Made by a program: the position numbers and the translations under genes. 54,642 nucleotides of DNA, from NCBI RefSeq assembly GCF_010672265.1, contig NZ_JAAHHC010000004.1, forward strand, positions 70,161 to 124,802. Direction: 5' to 3'. Below the pieces are notes generated by a model. That model was not told the origin of the DNA, did no database searches, and saw only the letters and a list, made by a program, of their open reading frames with translations. Position 1 is the first letter of the stretch. Each line of letters starts with the position of its first letter. Shown here piece by piece: positions 32,053-52,421 of this stretch. This stretch comes from Moorena sp. SIO3A2 (GTDB taxonomy: Bacteria; Cyanobacteriota; Cyanobacteriia; Cyanobacteriales; Coleofasciculaceae).

Positions 32053-32367
32053 GTGACTACCATGGCCAAAAAATTACTCTCAATAACTAGTAGACCATCA
32101 ACTAGTAGAACATCTCAACCAACGTCAACCTCTACGAGCTCTGAACAAGTCATGAATAATGAGCAGCTTAACCAGGTCGTAGAAGCTATCATCGCGGGCA
32201 AGTATTCTTGGGCTTGTGTGTTAGTTCTGCGTTTTTCTGGTTACAACCCCCTCCATTACATCCCTTACCGAACCTACAATCGCTTAATCAAAGAAAATAG
32301 TCAATCTGGTAAGCATCCAGTTGGCAAAACCCCTGTCTCACAATCACAGGTTGTTAGTAAGGTCTAG
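32053..32367 (+). CDS. HetP-like protein, 104 aa (copy 1)
   Basis: conserved HetP-family core [38 protein letters not shown]. Confidence 0.6.
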
Positions 32368-32801
32368 TCAGGGTTAGGGAAAGTTGGGAGATTCATCAAG
32401 TCTGAAGTTAACCACCTGCCTAGGTCAGTTTGATTGATTATTGATGCAGAGCCTAGTTTTCAACGTCTTCCCGTTTAATCTGTTGAACTGCACTCGCATC
32501 AACCGCACTATCTGCTTAGATCTAGCTGACATCTATTGGCTTGATGAGCTGGCTGATGACTTGACCTCCTATCTCCCTTTCCCCAACCCTTATGGGTTTA
32601 CTTTACACCAGATGCTCTAGGGGGAATTTAAAGTTTCGATGAAGTTTACTTAAAGTATTTGTGAATTTTTTGTGAATTATTGGTAACTAGCCGGTTAATG
32701 ACTTGACAAAAACTAAGTTATTAGATAAATAAATGTAGTTCATTATAAATGGTTAATTGTAAATGGTTAATTGTTAAAAATCAATTTTCAATGTTTAACA
32801 T

Positions 32802-35800
32802 ATGAAGAATATAATCAGGGATTCAGCAGAGCCTAGTAAACCACCGTCTTCTATCAACCCAGACCCTGCTAGCAATTTATCAGTGGTGCTTCAAAGCTTG
32901 ACCCTAGACTCAGTCGATCCAAAGCTCAACTACGAATTTAGTCAATCATTTGACCTTGATCACTTCCAGCTAGGGGATAAAATCCTTGCCTATACTAAAC
33001 CAGAGCTATCCCAAGATTCTGTTGAGATTGAACAAGATCACCAATATCTTTACCTAGTTTGTCAGGGTCGGGTACGACTACTAGGCTTTGATGCTGAAAA
33101 ACAGCGGGAGGTTTCCATACAGGTACTCGAAGAAGGGGAAACTTTTGGTGCCTATGATCTCTTAGGTAGTCTATCCTATCCTTACAGAGCGATCGCAGCG
33201 AGTTCAGGACAAGTTGCTCGTATTTCCCTAAATCAACTCTTGCCTTGGTTGGAACGGTTGCCAAAGTGGTCGGAAATCCTGGGGAAACAAGCCCAGCACC
33301 GGCAATGCCTAATTTTCTTCAAGACTTTGACCAATTTGCGATCGCTTAACGGTGTTACCATAAATCAACTGTTGCCCTACATCGTAGAAACACGCATTGA
33401 GGCTGGGGAGTCTCTGGTGTCCTCTTCCCAAGCTGGTCATTGCTGGCTACGTAGTGGTCAAATGGGAACGCCAGAAGGAACAGAGGCAAATTCCTCTGCT
33501 CCATTTCCTAGCATCGGAGAAAGTTGGGGATATCCGATGCCAGTACCCACAGATTGGATTGCCCAAACTGATGTATTGCTTTACCAGCTGCCTCAAGAGC
33601 ATTGGCAAGCGGCTTGCGCGATCGCACCAGTTTTGGCTAACTCCACCGAGTCACCGGATCAGGAGAACAGGCAAAGTGCTAAAAATGGTGACGGTAAATC
33701 TCCATCGGATCAAGGCGTAGTTAACAAGACCCATACTCCGTCACCACATGCAAACCAGACTAGAGCACGACCGACTCGGCGAGTTTTAGAAACTCCTAAG
33801 CAACAAACGCCCCTTGAACCCAGTCAGTCAGAAAGCTTTGATTTTCCCAAACCAGCAAAGCCGGGTGGGAGATTCCTAAGGTTTTGGCAGCGCTATCCTT
33901 TTATTGAGCAGCAAGCTTCTTCTGATTGTGGTGCTGCCTGCTTAGCCATGATTGGGCAGTATTGGGGCAAACGCTTTGCTCTCAACTCCCTGCGGGAACT
34001 GGCGGGAGTGGGTCGTTCTGGTTCATCCCTCAAAGGTTTAGCTAAAGCAGCGGAAAGTTTAGGGTTTCAAGCTAGTCCAGTCAGGGCTTCTTTAGGTCGC
34101 TTAGCGGATCGGAGTAATCCTTGGATTGCTCACTGGCAAGGAGATCACTATATTGTTGTCTACCAGGTAAAGGGTAATAAGGTACTCGTTGCCGATCCAG
34201 CAGTGGGGAAGCGATCGCTTGCTCGCAAAGACTTTCTCCAAAGTTGGACTGGGTATGCCATGCTATTGGATCCAACTCCCCAACTAGCAATTACTCCCAG
34301 CGACAAACGTTCTTTAGGGCCGTTTTGGGGATTGCTATGGCCCCATCGCTCAGTCCTGCTGCAAATTATCTTGGCTACCCTCATCCTTCAGGTTTTTGGT
34401 CTGATTACTCCCTTATTTACCCAGATCATTCTTGACCGGGTGATTATTAACAGAAGCCTTGTCACTCTCAATGTCTTCTCCATTGGTCTAATCATCTTTG
34501 GCCTTTGGACGATTGGGGTTAGTCTCACCAGACGCTACTTGCTGGACTACTTTTCCAATCGGCTTAGTCTCACCTTCGTCAGTGGCTTCATTAACCATAC
34601 CCTGACCTTACCCCTGAAGTTTTTTGAATCCCGCCAGGTGGGGGATATCCTGACCCGAATTCAGGAAACTGGAAAAATTCAGGGTTTTATAACTCAGCAA
34701 GCGATTGCGACTTGGCTAGATGTGGTGATGGTGTTTGTCTATATTGGACTAATGCTCTACTACAATTGGCGCTTAACCTTGCTGGTGCTGGCAACGATTT
34801 TCCCCATCGCCATCTTGACTGTGATTGCCAGTCCCTTTCTACGCCAGGTGTCCAGGGAAATCTTTAAAGAAGCAGCCCAACAAAATTCTATGTTAGTGGA
34901 AATGATGTCAGGGGTTGCTACTGTGAAAACGGCGGCTTCGGAACAAGAAGTGCGCTGGCGCTGGGAAGATCGCCTCACCAATCAGTTGAATGTACAATTT
35001 AAAGGTAGAAACCTGGCTAACGGGTTAGGGTCAATTAGTTCTCTAATTAATACTCTCAGCAGCACCGCTTTGCTTTGGTTTGGCGCTAGCTTAGTAATTA
35101 ATGAGCAGCTTACTATCGGTCAGTATGTCGCGTTTAATATGCTCATTGGCCGAGTCACTGGTCCGATTTTGGCTCTAGTGAATCTTTGGGATGAGTTTCA
35201 AGAAATCTTGGTGTCTGTAGAACGGCTTAATGATGTCTTATCTGCTAAGCCAGAGGAGAATCCTCAAGAACCAATGTTGGTTCTACCTGAGATTAAGGGT
35301 GATGTAATATTGGAAGATGTTACCTTCCGATACTCCGAGGATGAGGATCGCAATATCCTACAGAATATTTCCCTACAGATTAGGGCTGGAGAAACCATTG
35401 CTCTAGTGGGGCGCAGTGGCTCTGGCAAGAGTACCTTGGTGAAGCTACTGCAAGGTCTCTATCATCCGACTAATGGTCGTATTTTGATAGATGGACACGA
35501 TATCCGCCATATTTCCCCCCAATCTTTGCGTTCTCAAATGGGTGTGGTACCCCAAGAATGTTTCTTGTTCTCGGGGACAATTGTCGAAAATATCACTCTC
35601 TACCGACCGGATTTCAGCCTGGATGAAGCCGTAGAGGTAGCCAAACTAGCAGAAGCTCATGCTTTTATTCAAGGTATGACTTTGGGATATAATACAAAAG
35701 TAGGAGAGCGAGGCTCTACCCTTTCTGGTGGACAGCGACAAAGGATTGCCATAGCCCGAGCCCTATTGGGCAACCCCAAGATTCTGATTCTGGATGAAGC

Positions 35801-51349: not shown

Positions 51350-52013
51350 CAGGACTAACGCAATTTAGCCATCGACATACTGCCTGTAGGGTAATGGGGG
51401 TGGTACTAAATCCAGGTCGATTAACCCTGATGGCACAACCAGTCAGGGAAGAGGAGTACAAGGGAGGAAAAGGGATTGACTGACAAGTCGTGGGCTTTGC
51501 CCAGTTAGGGAAATTTCTGCTCAGAGGTAGCATTGAGCACGGTCAGGGAAAAGCGGTTTGAATTACCTATGGATAAAGGATTTCACAGTCTTTTCACAAA
51601 ATCTGATCCAAATGTTCACGAAATCTGATCAGAATTTTCATAAAGCTTTGTTCAAAATAGTCTTTACTGAGAGTGTTCCAAGTTTTAGAGGTTTGTCAGT
51701 CAACTAGGGGCAAGGGGGGAAGAATCTGGTGTTGTCCAAAATGGGGATGATTGATGGAGATTTAGAAGAAGAGAATCCTGATCTATCAATCGTTATTGAT
51801 TGGTAAGAGATTATTCGAGATCACCCGATCACCCGATCACCCGATCAAGCCATCTTCGCAGGTTTCACAACTCAAATCAGATGGTTAGATCAGTACTCTA
51901 ACTCTTCGCTTAATTGACCAACCAGAATCACTGACTATTGAAACTAGAGGTAGAGTTCAAGGGTAAATCCTGCAAATCCAATTCGTTGACCTTCAGATCA
52001 AAAAGAAATCATC

Positions 52014-52421
52014 ATGAGTTACTCCATGCTTCGTCGTTCTAATCGCCCACTGGGCAAAACCCTAGATCCTGAAAAGATTAGTTTGATTGAAGAAGCAATT
52101 CGCGATCGCAAGTATTCCTGGGCTTGTGTTTTGATGCTGCGTTATTTGGGTCTTAACCCCTTAGAATACATACCGTCGCGAACCTACTGCCGATTGCGAC
52201 GGGATAACGAGAAAATGGACTCACTCAATCCAGCTACAACCGACAGCCTTAAGCAGGATAGGGAAGATGCTCAGAAGTGCTTAAGGAACATTAAAGATCT
52301 CGACTATGCAAAGCCCCTTGACAGCAGAAGCCAACTAGTTCAAGGGGGCTCTAAAGAACAGTGGTTTAACAAAAAATTGCCAAAATTATACTCAAGTACT
52401 AGGAATATAAGGTGTTTCTAG
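52014..52421 (+). CDS. HetP-like protein, 135 aa (copy 3)
   Basis: [38 protein letters not shown]. Confidence 0.6.
   Translation: MSYSMLRRSNRPLGKTLDPEKISLIEEAIRDRKYSWACVLMLRYLGLNPLEYIPSRTYCRLRRDNEKMDSLNPATTDSLKQDREDAQKCLRNIKDLDYAKPLDSRSQLVQGGSKEQWFNKKLPKLYSSTRNIRCF

What the first reader, a model, noticed from the sequence alone, without database searches (positions are those of the whole stretch)
32053..52421. Three HetP-family paralogs, each flanking a C39-ABC/HlyD pair
The 104-aa (32053), 144-aa (38608) and 135-aa (52014) proteins share the core (A/I)I.(A/D)(G/R)KYSWAC(V/L)L(V/M)LR..G.NPL.Y(I/M)P.RTY.RL. I recognise this as the conserved domain of HetP and HetP-like heterocyst-commitment modulators. 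It is attributed from memory, not from a search. In Anabaena, hetP sits beside hetC, a C39-ABC exporter. Here the association is reiterated three times and includes a HlyD adaptor and explicit peptide cargo genes. This points to an ancestral role of HetP-family proteins alongside peptide export, for example as an immunity or sensor component or an export chaperone, rather than a heterocyst-specific role.
Basis: partly seen in the sequence, partly recalled or inferred. Interest (0 to 1): 0.7.

Follow-up and report, generated by a model that had tools for sequence, protein, structure and literature searches.

The report
HetP-like genes beside peptide exporters
A non-heterocystous cyanobacterium (Moorena) carries three small HetP-family genes inside a duplicated peptide-export gene cluster; this pairing was already reported in 2011, and two of the three proteins look like substrates of the exporter rather than helpers of it.

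Summary
The three ORFs are real HetP-family members: NCBIfam NF037966 scores of 118.7, 93.3 and 74 bits against a cut-off of 45. The window holds only two cNMP-C39-ABC/HlyD pairs, not three.

The locus is a tandem pair of [HetC-like exporter, HlyD, long HetP-like, double-glycine cargo genes, PPIase] modules, plus one extra short HetP-like gene upstream.

The HetP–exporter synteny is strongly conserved. A full C39-ABC lies upstream on the same strand in 61 of 80 loci from other species, including all 12 from named lineages I take to be non-heterocystous. This is already published: Wang et al. 2011 and Micallef et al. 2015 describe "HetP-type precursors" with the motif KIxDLxYLEx10GG.

HetP2 carries this motif clearly. 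HetP3 has a degenerate copy. HetP1 has none. A profile of the motif picks out the leaders of true cargo ORFs in the same clusters.

Short, motif-less HetP proteins occupy the same slot elsewhere, and the core models as a small HTH-like domain. HetP is reported to bind DNA.

Best reading: a small regulator whose long forms carry an exporter-cleavable tail. Immunity, sensor or chaperone roles have no support here. It is a new member of a known kind, of moderate interest.

The parts
32062..32367 (+). HetP1: short HetP-family paralog, 101 aa from ATG 32062 (104 aa from GTG 32053). HetP core only, with no DLxYLE...GG motif and no tail.
   Evidence: NF037966 118.7 bits. Orthologue P0042 starts MAKKLL. 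No motif remnant in any frame downstream. Conserved in the same position in two other Moorena genomes (L001, L002).
32802..36029 (+). ABC1: HetC-like peptidase-containing ABC exporter (cNMP-binding domain + C39 peptidase + TMD + NBD), 1075 aa.
   Evidence: Pfam cNMP_binding 41.8, Peptidase_C39 140.2, ABC_membrane 154.5 and ABC_tran 136.7 bits. Catalytic motifs QQASSDCGAACL and HYIVVY..DP, plus Walker A, signature and Walker B. 58% identical over the TMD-NBD to the exporter upstream of the HetP orthologue in L025.
36834..38435 (+). HlyD1: type I secretion periplasmic adaptor, 533 aa.
   Evidence: TIGR01843 249.9 bits against a cut-off of 208.65. HlyD_3 79.8 bits.
38608..39042 (+). HetP2: long HetP-family paralog, 144 aa. 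Made of HetP core (~20-64), variable linker, internal leader-like motif [22 protein letters not shown] (90-111) and a 33-aa tail.
   Evidence: NF037966 93.3 bits. The motif scores 40.9 bits against the family motif HMM. AF2 gives core pLDDT >90 and motif <50. 100% identical to a Moorena protein.
39679..40001 (.). 164-nt x2 tandem repeat upstream of the first cargo gene.
   Evidence: TRF; self-match only.
40163..42615 (+). Five cargo ORFs with N-terminal double-glycine leaders (40163-40495, 40574-40909, 41114-41446, 41735-42022, 42328-42615). The first three are near-identical tandem copies.
   Evidence: Translations show M(L/I)ISDLNHLE...V.GG leaders. 411-nt period tandem duplication. Leader HMM 40-46 bits. 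No NCBIfam family match.
42900..43196 (+). 98-aa ORF without a recognisable GG leader. It is conserved as a called gene in other Moorena assemblies. Role unknown.
43443..44201 (+). PPIase1: parvulin/SurA-like peptidyl-prolyl isomerase, 252 aa.
   Evidence: Pfam Rotamase 44.3 bits. A weak match to the TIGR04500 peptide-maturation PpiC family, below its cut-off.
46332..49544 (+). ABC2: second HetC-like peptidase-containing ABC exporter, 1070 aa, 71% identical to ABC1.
   Evidence: Catalytic motifs QQSSSDCGAACL and HYIVVY..DP.
49715..51349 (+). HlyD2: second adaptor, 544 aa, 62% identical to HlyD1.
   Evidence: TIGR01843 256.9 bits.
52014..52421 (+). HetP3: long HetP-family paralog, 135 aa, with a divergent internal motif NIKDLDYAKPLDSRSQLVQGG and a 23-aa tail SKEQWF...
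   Evidence: NF037966 74.0 bits. 47% identical to HetP2 over residues 9-116, which includes the motif. The motif scores ~0 bits against the family motif HMM. The identical protein sits in the same context in 7 Moorena contigs.
53247..53792 (.). 125-nt x4.6 tandem repeat. Each unit contains a TTGACA...TAGGAT promoter-like pair and an AACAACAAC/GTTGTTGTT hairpin. A partial copy recurs upstream of the last cargo gene (54238-54320).
53837..54642 (+). Two further cargo ORFs (53837-54130, and 54356 to the window end) with MNISDLNHIE...I(I/V)GA leaders. Module 2 continues past the window end with a 260-aa rotamase.

Best explanation
Shown: the region is a tandem duplication of a five-part cyanobacterial peptide-export module. 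Each module has a HetC-like exporter (cNMP-binding domain, active-looking C39 peptidase, ABC transporter), a HlyD adaptor, a long HetP-family protein, one to several double-glycine cargo genes and a parvulin-type PPIase. One extra short HetP-family gene lies upstream. This corresponds to the group I/II 'bacteriocin' clusters of Wang et al. 2011. The long HetP-likes have three parts: an almost invariant ~45-residue core that models as a compact three-helix, HTH-like domain; a second conserved island I-K-D-L-x-Y-L-E-x10-G-G that resembles the leaders of the neighbouring cargo; and a variable 20-36 residue tail. Inferred mechanism: the HetP core is a small DNA-binding or regulatory module with its own cytoplasmic function. 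In the long forms (HetP2, less surely HetP3) the internal leader-like motif docks the protein on the C39 domain of the adjacent exporter. The exporter cuts after Gly-Gly and exports the tail through the ABC/HlyD channel, leaving the core in the cell. Exporter activity would thereby be coupled to the state of the regulator. In HetC the exporter's cNMP domain is required for function and binds ppGpp in vitro, so exporter activity may itself be regulated. The short HetP1 lacks the handle and would act independently of the exporter, or as a paralog that modulates the long forms, as reported for Anabaena Asl1930. In heterocyst formers the same module (hetC-hetP) would have been co-opted for commitment.
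For: Synteny:
- 61/80 loci from other species have a full C39-ABC upstream on the same strand (12/12 named non-heterocystous lineages, 8/8 unnamed, 41/60 Nostocales-type).
- HlyD lies directly between the two in 38 loci.

Conservation over 211 distinct long forms:
- core 3.93 bits per column
- motif 2.79
- linker 1.49
- tail 0.9-1.2
- GG kept in at least 90%

Similarity to cargo leaders: an HMM of the HetP motif was searched against 32,263 six-frame ORFs. Its top 13 non-HetP hits were all Met-proximal leaders ('MIISDLNYLEVV..VGG') of ~100-aa ORFs in the same loci, 12 of them on the HetP strand; the best i-E-value was 0.0016.

Both C39 domains keep the Gln/Cys and His/Asp catalytic motifs.

The core has its own role. 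Short 79-101-aa HetP proteins without motif or tail occupy the same ABC-HlyD-HetP-cargo-rotamase slot in Lyngbya aestuarii and in metagenomes. Asl1930 (93 aa) lies in a group II cluster.

Literature:
- HetP is called a 'nonspecific DNA-binding protein' that helps sigma-HetZ reach its sites (PMC13342950).
- HetC is an active C39 protease, binds ppGpp in vitro, and its substrate is unknown (PMC10986499).
- Bona fide Anabaena HetP carries SKIKDLAYLEVVGKQTTE...GG.
- An extra hetP copy suppresses a hetC peptidase-domain deletion (PMC4133259).

In Nostocales-type loci, conventional GG-leader ORFs downstream are rare (2/60), while HetP keeps its GG motif in 55/60.
Against: - No cleavage or export of any HetP-family protein has been shown, here or in the papers I could read.
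- The motif is not a canonical leader. The DLxYLE block sits two residues further from GG than in the cargo (x10 against x8-9), and position -7 is polar.
- A leader HMM built from the window's own cargo does not detect HetP2 or HetP3.
- HetP3's motif is degenerate (Glu to Lys, plus a Pro) and scores ~0 bits.
- The motif sits about 90 residues into the protein, not at the N-terminus. NHLP and Nif11 leaders are a precedent for that, from my own knowledge.
- HetP-GFP polar localisation in Anabaena was unchanged in the hetC peptidase-deletion strain, which argues against C39-dependent tethering.
- DNA binding is known to me only through a secondary citation. I could not read Zhang 2018 or Videau 2016.
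- The 80 loci are those most similar to HetP2, so they are biased towards the long type.
Confidence: 0.45

Rival explanations
1. Pure precursor model (Wang et al. 2011). The HetP-likes are simply bacteriocin or RiPP-type precursors. The HetP domain is a long leader, analogous to NHLP and Nif11 leaders, and the tail is the only functional product.
For: The conserved KIxDLxYLEx10GG motif and synteny with the C39-ABC/HlyD pair. The pattern of conserved leader and variable tail. The resemblance to cargo leaders.
Against: Short HetP proteins with no motif and no tail keep the same genomic slot and the same invariant core, and a leader with nothing to lead makes no sense. HetP1 in this window is such a form. 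The core is far more conserved (20 invariant residues) than recognition by one peptidase would need. Anabaena HetP and its short paralogs have intracellular regulatory phenotypes, and HetP is reported to bind DNA.
Confidence: 0.2
2. Regulator-only model. HetP-likes are small DNA-binding regulators of the export cluster. The DLxYLE...GG island is a protein-protein or oligomerisation motif unrelated to the C39 peptidase, and its similarity to cargo leaders is convergent or comes from local recombination.
For: The HTH-like fold and the DNA-binding report. Short forms work without the motif. The spacing to GG differs from the cargo, and the cargo-leader HMM gives no hit. HetP-GFP localisation is independent of the HetC peptidase domain.
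Against: Gly-Gly is invariant at a fixed distance from the DLxYLE block across cyanobacterial orders. This lies in a region predicted to be disordered, beside an active-looking Gly-Gly-specific peptidase. Such a coincidence is unlikely. In the hetC-hetP type loci HetP is usually the only GG-bearing gene next to the exporter.
Confidence: 0.2
3. First reader's proposal. HetP-likes are immunity proteins, sensors or export chaperones that serve the ABC/HlyD machine and its cargo.
For: Only the conserved adjacency. Small cytosolic helical immunity proteins exist for some class II bacteriocins (my own knowledge).
Against: The model shows no membrane segment and no signal peptide; the hydrophobic YSWACVLML stretch is a buried helix with pLDDT >90. 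There is no sensor-type domain. The cargo are Thr/Ser/Gly-rich ~90-aa proteins that do not resemble pore-forming toxins. HetP in Anabaena acts on transcription. Exporters of this type are not known to need chaperones (my own knowledge).
Confidence: 0.07

Closest known systems
hetC-hetP locus of Anabaena/Nostoc sp. PCC 7120 (Alr2817/Alr2818)
   Same: The exporter has the same architecture of cNMP-binding domain, C39 peptidase and ABC. A HetP-family gene lies downstream on the same strand. HetP itself carries SKIKDLAYLEVVGKQTTEIHGG plus a tail. ABC1 is 58-63% identical over the C39 and TMD-NBD regions to the exporter upstream of the HetP orthologue in L025.
   Different: In Anabaena there is no HlyD between the exporter and hetP and no conventional cargo array. 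The Moorena locus has HlyD, five to seven cargo genes and a PPIase per module, is duplicated, and sits in an organism that I recall does not form heterocysts.
Group I/II cyanobacterial 'bacteriocin' gene clusters with HetP-type precursors (Wang et al. 2011; Micallef et al. 2015)
   Same: A long C39-ABC transporter, HlyD, a SurA-like rotamase, double-glycine precursors and an adjacent HetP-like protein with KIxDLxYLEx10GG.
   Different: This locus is a tandem pair of modules with three HetP paralogs, one of them motif-less and placed upstream of the exporter. No M16 peptidase or other modification enzyme was seen in the window.
NHLP and Nif11-type long-leader precursors (Haft et al. 2010; my own knowledge, and listed beside HetP in Wang Table 2)
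   Same: A folded, conserved N-terminal domain of about 50-80 residues precedes a Gly-Gly cleavage site recognised by a C39-ABC exporter, and is followed by a variable C-terminal peptide.
   Different: HetP-family proteins also exist as stand-alone short forms in the same clusters. They have documented intracellular regulatory roles. No sequence relationship to NHLP or Nif11 was detected.
PteB/EbfG system of Synechococcus elongatus (small GG-motif secreted proteins enabling biofilm; PMC4997328)
   Same: A cyanobacterial C39-type exporter handling small double-glycine proteins that need not be antibiotics. It is a plausible functional analogue for the Thr/Ser/Gly-rich cargo here.
   Different: I did not read the full text or test homology of the cargo to EbfG proteins. 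I do not know whether that system includes a HetP-like component.

Membership tests
HetP family (NCBIfam NF037966 / Pfam PF28069) | Profile match above the curated cut-off. | tested here: met
   118.7, 93.3 and 74.0 bits against a cut-off of 45 for the three ORFs. Homologs carry precomputed PF28069. The local Pfam copy lacks this model, hence no hit.
HetP family (NCBIfam NF037966 / Pfam PF28069) | Invariant core residues: A-I...K-Y-S-W-A-C-(V)-L, N-P..Y.P.R-T-Y.R-L. | tested here: met
   All three window proteins were in alignments A1 and A2, which report 19-20 invariant columns.
HetP family (NCBIfam NF037966 / Pfam PF28069) | Role in commitment to heterocyst differentiation, which gives the family its name. 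| not testable with these tools
   The source genus is Moorena (Coleofasciculales). From my own knowledge it is non-heterocystous, so the name describes the Anabaena member and not this one.
HetP-type precursor (Wang et al. 2011) | Internal motif KIxDLxYLEx10GG downstream of the HetP core. | tested here: inconclusive
   HetP2 has QIKDLAYVE-x10-GG and scores 40.9 bits against the motif HMM: met. HetP3 has NIKDLDYAK-x10-GG with the spacing kept, but Glu is replaced by Lys and the score is ~0 bits: doubtful. HetP1 has no motif at all: not met.
HetP-type precursor (Wang et al. 2011) | Adjacency to a C39-ABC exporter and HlyD. | tested here: met
   HetP2 starts 172 bp after HlyD1, HetP3 starts 664 bp after HlyD2, and HetP1 ends 434 bp before ABC1.
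HetP-type precursor (Wang et al. 2011) | Actual cleavage after Gly-Gly and export of the C-terminal peptide. | not testable with these tools
   This needs biochemistry or mass spectrometry. No paper I could read reports it.
Peptidase-containing ABC transporter, HetC subtype | C39 peptidase domain with catalytic Gln/Cys and His/Asp. | tested here: met
   Peptidase_C39 140.2 and 139.7 bits over the full model length. QQ(A/S)SSDCGAACL and HYIVVY..DP are present in both proteins.
Peptidase-containing ABC transporter, HetC subtype | ABC exporter transmembrane domain plus nucleotide-binding domain with Walker A, signature and Walker B. | tested here: met
   ABC_membrane 154.5/156.6 and ABC_tran 136.7/133.1 bits. 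GRSGSGKST, LSGGQ and ILDEATS are present.
Peptidase-containing ABC transporter, HetC subtype | N-terminal cyclic-nucleotide-binding-like domain (binds ppGpp in HetC). | tested here: met
   cNMP_binding 41.8 and 41.5 bits against a cut-off of 27.5. Ligand binding itself cannot be tested here; the ppGpp data are for HetC only.
Type I secretion membrane-fusion protein (HlyD) | Match to TIGR01843 above the cut-off. | tested here: met
   249.9 and 256.9 bits against a cut-off of 208.65.
Double-glycine leader cargo | N-terminal leader ending in GG or GA, with hydrophobic residues at about -4, -7, -12 and -15. | tested here: met
   For MLISDLNHLESVEASQVQGG: V-4, A-7, L-12, L-15 (read directly). Seven ORFs score 40-46 bits with the leader HMM, which was built from six of these same leaders; nothing else in the window exceeds 2 bits. 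No curated family match for the mature parts.

The most novel reading that the evidence does not exclude
Long HetP-family proteins, including Anabaena HetP itself, are the physiological substrates of their neighbouring HetC-type exporters. Cleavage after the internal Gly-Gly releases a cytoplasmic HTH-like regulator and exports a tail peptide. The heterocyst-commitment pair hetC-hetP would then be a stripped-down descendant of an ancient cyanobacterial module of exporter, self-processed regulator and cargo, still intact in Moorena. This would name the HetC substrate, which a 2024 study still describes as unknown.
Probability: 0.35. Interest if true: 0.7.

Novelty: new member of a known kind. 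Interest (0 to 1): 0.38.

Why it matters
The locus is a clean example, outside heterocyst formers, of a module already catalogued by genome mining. As a discovery it adds little.

Its value is comparative. It shows the complete ancestral-looking arrangement (exporter, adaptor, HetP-like protein, true double-glycine cargo, PPIase) beside HetP-like proteins whose internal motif resembles the cargo leaders.

This sharpens a testable hypothesis for an open question in heterocyst biology: what HetC cleaves and exports. A 2024 study states that no double-glycine gene lies near hetC, yet hetP itself carries such a motif.

The same data argue that the HetP core is more than a leader, because motif-less short forms keep the same genomic slot.

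Tried and rejected
- Pfam scan of the three ORFs: no hit, because the local copy lacks PF28069. NCBIfam settled the question.
- Sequence search of the PDB with the family profile: nothing below E 0.29.
- HMM built from the six cargo leaders in the window: it does not detect HetP2 or HetP3. I report this as a negative result. The reverse search, with a broader HetP-motif profile, did link the two.
- Search for a decayed motif downstream of HetP1 in all frames: none. HetP1 is therefore not an obviously truncated long form.
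- Promoter and terminator scan of 31000-46500: no more promoter-like sites than in shuffles (25 against 28.2), so uninformative.
- Rfam on the whole window: only one tRNA.
- NCBIfam on the cargo and the small unassigned ORFs: no family.
- Videau et al. 2016 and Zhang et al. 2018 could not be read. HetP domain-function and DNA-binding statements therefore rest on secondary citations.
- I considered a third exporter pair in the first 31 kb and rejected it. Those ORFs are NACHT-HEAT proteins, a CLC channel, a PmbA/TldD-family peptidase, a kinase and others.
- I looked for a GG-leader PatC-like ORF downstream of the HetP orthologue in L025: none obvious.

Full report
**Observation**

Pairwise BLASTP E-values are 5e-25 (HetP1/HetP2), 2e-19 (HetP1/HetP3) and 2e-30 (HetP2/HetP3). 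The local Pfam copy gave no hit. NCBIfam NF037966, 'HetP family heterocyst commitment protein', matches all three at 118.7, 93.3 and 74.0 bits against a cut-off of 45. The 144-aa protein is 100% identical to a database protein named HetP family [Moorena], and homologs carry the newer Pfam PF28069. The recalled family assignment is therefore correct. For the first ORF, the closest database protein (P0042, 96% identical) starts at MAKKLL, which corresponds to ATG 32062 and gives 101 aa.

**Anatomy of the locus**

ORFs 32802-36029 and 46332-49544 each combine cNMP_binding, Peptidase_C39, ABC_membrane and ABC_tran. Both keep the catalytic Gln/Cys (QQ[AS]SSDCGAACL) and His/Asp (HYIVVY..DP) motifs, plus Walker A, signature and Walker B. 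ORFs 36834-38435 and 49715-51349 are HlyD-type adaptors above the TIGR01843 cut-off.

Seven ORFs carry N-terminal double-glycine leaders of the form M(L/I/N)ISDLNH(L/I)E...(V/I).G(G/A). They are 40163, 40574, 41114, 41735, 42328, 53837 and 54356 to the window end. ORF 43443-44201 is a parvulin/SurA-like PPIase.

The first 31 kb hold unrelated genes and no further exporter. There are thus two exporter pairs, not three. HetP1 and HetP2 flank the same pair.

Other Moorena assemblies carrying the identical HetP3 show that module 2 continues past the window end with cargo genes and a second rotamase. ABC1/ABC2, HlyD1/HlyD2 and HetP2/HetP3 are 71%, 62% and 47% identical. The locus is therefore a tandem pair of [exporter, HlyD, long HetP, cargo, PPIase] modules, with one extra short HetP upstream.

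HetP2 and HetP3 carry a second element downstream of the core: [20 protein letters not shown] and IKDLDYAKPLDSRSQLVQGG. Each is followed by a tail of 33 or 23 residues. In homologs this is the second conserved island of the protein.

Mean column information over 211 distinct long forms:

| Region | Bits per column |
|---|---|
| Core | 3.93 |
| Motif | 2.79 |
| Linker | 1.49 |
| Tail | 0.9-1.2 |

Gly-Gly is kept in at least 90% of these forms. Within clades the tail begins with a recognisable ..EQW(L/F).. and is typically 36 residues long in the Nostocales-type loci.

I ran two tests of resemblance to true leaders:
- An HMM built from only the six cargo leaders in the window did not detect HetP2 or HetP3. 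This is a negative result.
- An HMM of the HetP motif (50 distinct sequences) was searched against 32,263 six-frame ORFs from the 80 loci plus the window. Its top 13 non-HetP hits were all Met-proximal leaders of ~100-aa ORFs ('MIISDLNYLEVV..VGG') in the same loci, 12 of them on the HetP strand. The best i-E-value was 0.0016.

The shared part is the I-x-D-L-x-Y-L-E-V-V block. The distance to GG is two residues longer in HetP proteins (x10 against x8-9), so the motif is leader-like rather than a canonical leader. HetP2 scores 40.9 bits against the family motif. HetP3 scores ~0 bits (Glu to Lys, plus a Pro) although the spacing and the tail start are kept. HetP1 has no motif, and no remnant lies downstream.

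**Conservation of the neighbourhood**

At least 589 HetP relatives occur in the one-genome-per-species collection. In the 80 loci closest to HetP2, a full C39-ABC lies upstream on the same strand in 61:

| Group | Loci with full C39-ABC upstream |
|---|---|
| Named lineages I take to be non-heterocystous (Moorena, Symploca, Microseira, Stenomitos, Aliterella, and MAGs named only to Phormidiaceae, Coleofasciculaceae, Chroococcidiopsidaceae, Leptolyngbyaceae or Leptolyngbyales) | 12/12 |
| Unnamed metagenome bins | 8/8 |
| Nostocales-type | 41/60 |

HlyD lies directly between exporter and HetP in 38 loci at a 60-bit threshold, or in 28 at a stricter 100-bit threshold. The remaining Nostocales-type loci mostly show the hetC-hetP arrangement without HlyD, and some Nostoc show only a fragment of C39. 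The sample is biased towards long forms.

I therefore looked separately at short forms. Proteins of 79-101 aa with no motif or tail sit in the same exporter-HlyD-HetP-cargo-rotamase slot, for example in Lyngbya aestuarii. Among the 118 clusters nearest HetP1, 82 match a strict motif pattern, several more carry variants, and about 19 short ones lack it.

**What is already known**

Wang et al. [quoted passage not shown] They described the motif KIxDLxYLEx10GG and proposed HetP proteins as precursors. Their supplement aligns Anabaena alr2818 (HetP) with this motif. It also lists the short paralog asl1930 in a group II cluster, and HetP-likes from the unicellular Cyanothece and Acaryochloris. Micallef et al. 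2015 reuse 'HetP-type precursor'.

I checked independently that a HetP orthologue carries the motif. The L025 protein is 159 aa, and its C-terminus ...DFIHN matches the alr2818-9 primer in PMC4133259.

HetC is an active cysteine protease and ABC exporter. Its cNMP domain binds ppGpp in vitro and is required for HetC function in vivo. Its substrate is stated to be unknown, and the authors say that no gene with a characteristic GG leader was found near hetC. An extra hetP copy suppresses a hetC peptidase-domain deletion. HetP-GFP localisation, however, is unchanged in that mutant. A 2026 paper calls HetP a non-specific DNA-binding protein that helps sigma-HetZ occupy its sites. The short paralogs modulate commitment.

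**Structure**

**Interpretation**

The data fit best a small HTH-like regulator that belongs to the export module. Its long forms carry an exporter-recognised, Gly-Gly-cleavable handle and a tail. Its short forms, such as HetP1 here and Asl1930 in Anabaena, act without one.

The pure-precursor view of 2011 does not explain the motif-less short forms in the same slot, or the extreme conservation of the core. A regulator-only view does not explain an invariant Gly-Gly at fixed spacing, in a disordered segment, next to a Gly-Gly-specific peptidase. Immunity, sensor or chaperone roles have no positive support. Every mechanistic step beyond anatomy and conservation is inference.

**Verdict**

The central idea, a non-heterocyst and export-linked origin for HetP proteins, is right but was published in 2011. 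The locus is a new member of a known kind. Its main use is to sharpen the testable proposal that HetP-type proteins are substrates of HetC-type exporters.

Noticed in passing
window 53247-53792 and 54238-54320: A 125-nt unit is repeated 4.6 times just upstream of cargo gene 53837. Each unit contains a TTGACA...TAGGAT promoter-like pair and an AACAACAAC/GTTGTTGTT hairpin. A partial copy recurs upstream of the next cargo gene. It looks like repeated promoter/5'-UTR pieces left by tandem duplication of cargo genes.
   Followed up: partly
window 39679-40001: A 164-nt x2 tandem repeat (86% identical) lies upstream of the first cargo array. It is unrelated in sequence to the 125-nt repeat.
   Followed up: partly
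window 52447-53065 (also 36048-36095, 30307-30333): Dense short tandem repeats occupy the HetP3-to-cargo spacer: heptamers TCAGCCA, GCTGAGT and CAGAAGT, a 19-mer x5.6 and a 25-mer x4.4. They generate the spurious overlapping ORFs at 52412-52846 on both strands.
   Followed up: no
window 40137-40957: Cargo genes 40163 and 40574 are a 411-nt tandem duplication (94% identical), and 41114 is a third close copy. The mature parts are Thr/Ser/Gly/Asn-rich, about 90 aa, with no curated family match. They resemble secreted matrix-type proteins more than pore-forming bacteriocins; this was not tested.
   Followed up: partly
L044, L050, L060, L061, L063, L066, L069, L073, L080 (Nostoc spp.), ~1.3-1.8 kb upstream of the 157-aa HetP-like gene: Only a fragment of a C39 domain (about 90-106 aa, 41-42% identity) remains upstream, with no transmembrane or ATPase part. 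This suggests a decayed exporter. In these proteins the conserved Trp at the start of the tail is replaced (SLDQRL...).
   Followed up: partly
proteins P0135, P0139, P0147, P0148 (P0148 is named Calothrix sp. PCC 6303): These are long HetP-likes in which Gly-Gly is replaced by ...RNSG/RNNG... while the DLAYME block and the tail (WE[ED]WL) are kept. They may be natural non-cleavable variants.
   Followed up: no
window 60-3341 and 3728-8887 (+), 8967-9761 (+): Two very large NACHT NTPase proteins with long HEAT-repeat arrays (1093 and 1719 aa) are followed by a 264-aa HEAT-repeat protein. They are STAND-type proteins unrelated to the finding.
   Followed up: no
window 42900-43196 (+) and 44202-46331: A 98-aa ORF without a GG leader sits between the cargo array and the PPIase and is conserved as a called gene in other Moorena assemblies. 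A 2.1-kb stretch between PPIase1 and ABC2 holds only small ORFs of 44-83 aa with no family match.
   Followed up: no
window 21959-22043 (-): A single tRNA gene is the only Rfam match in the window.
   Followed up: no
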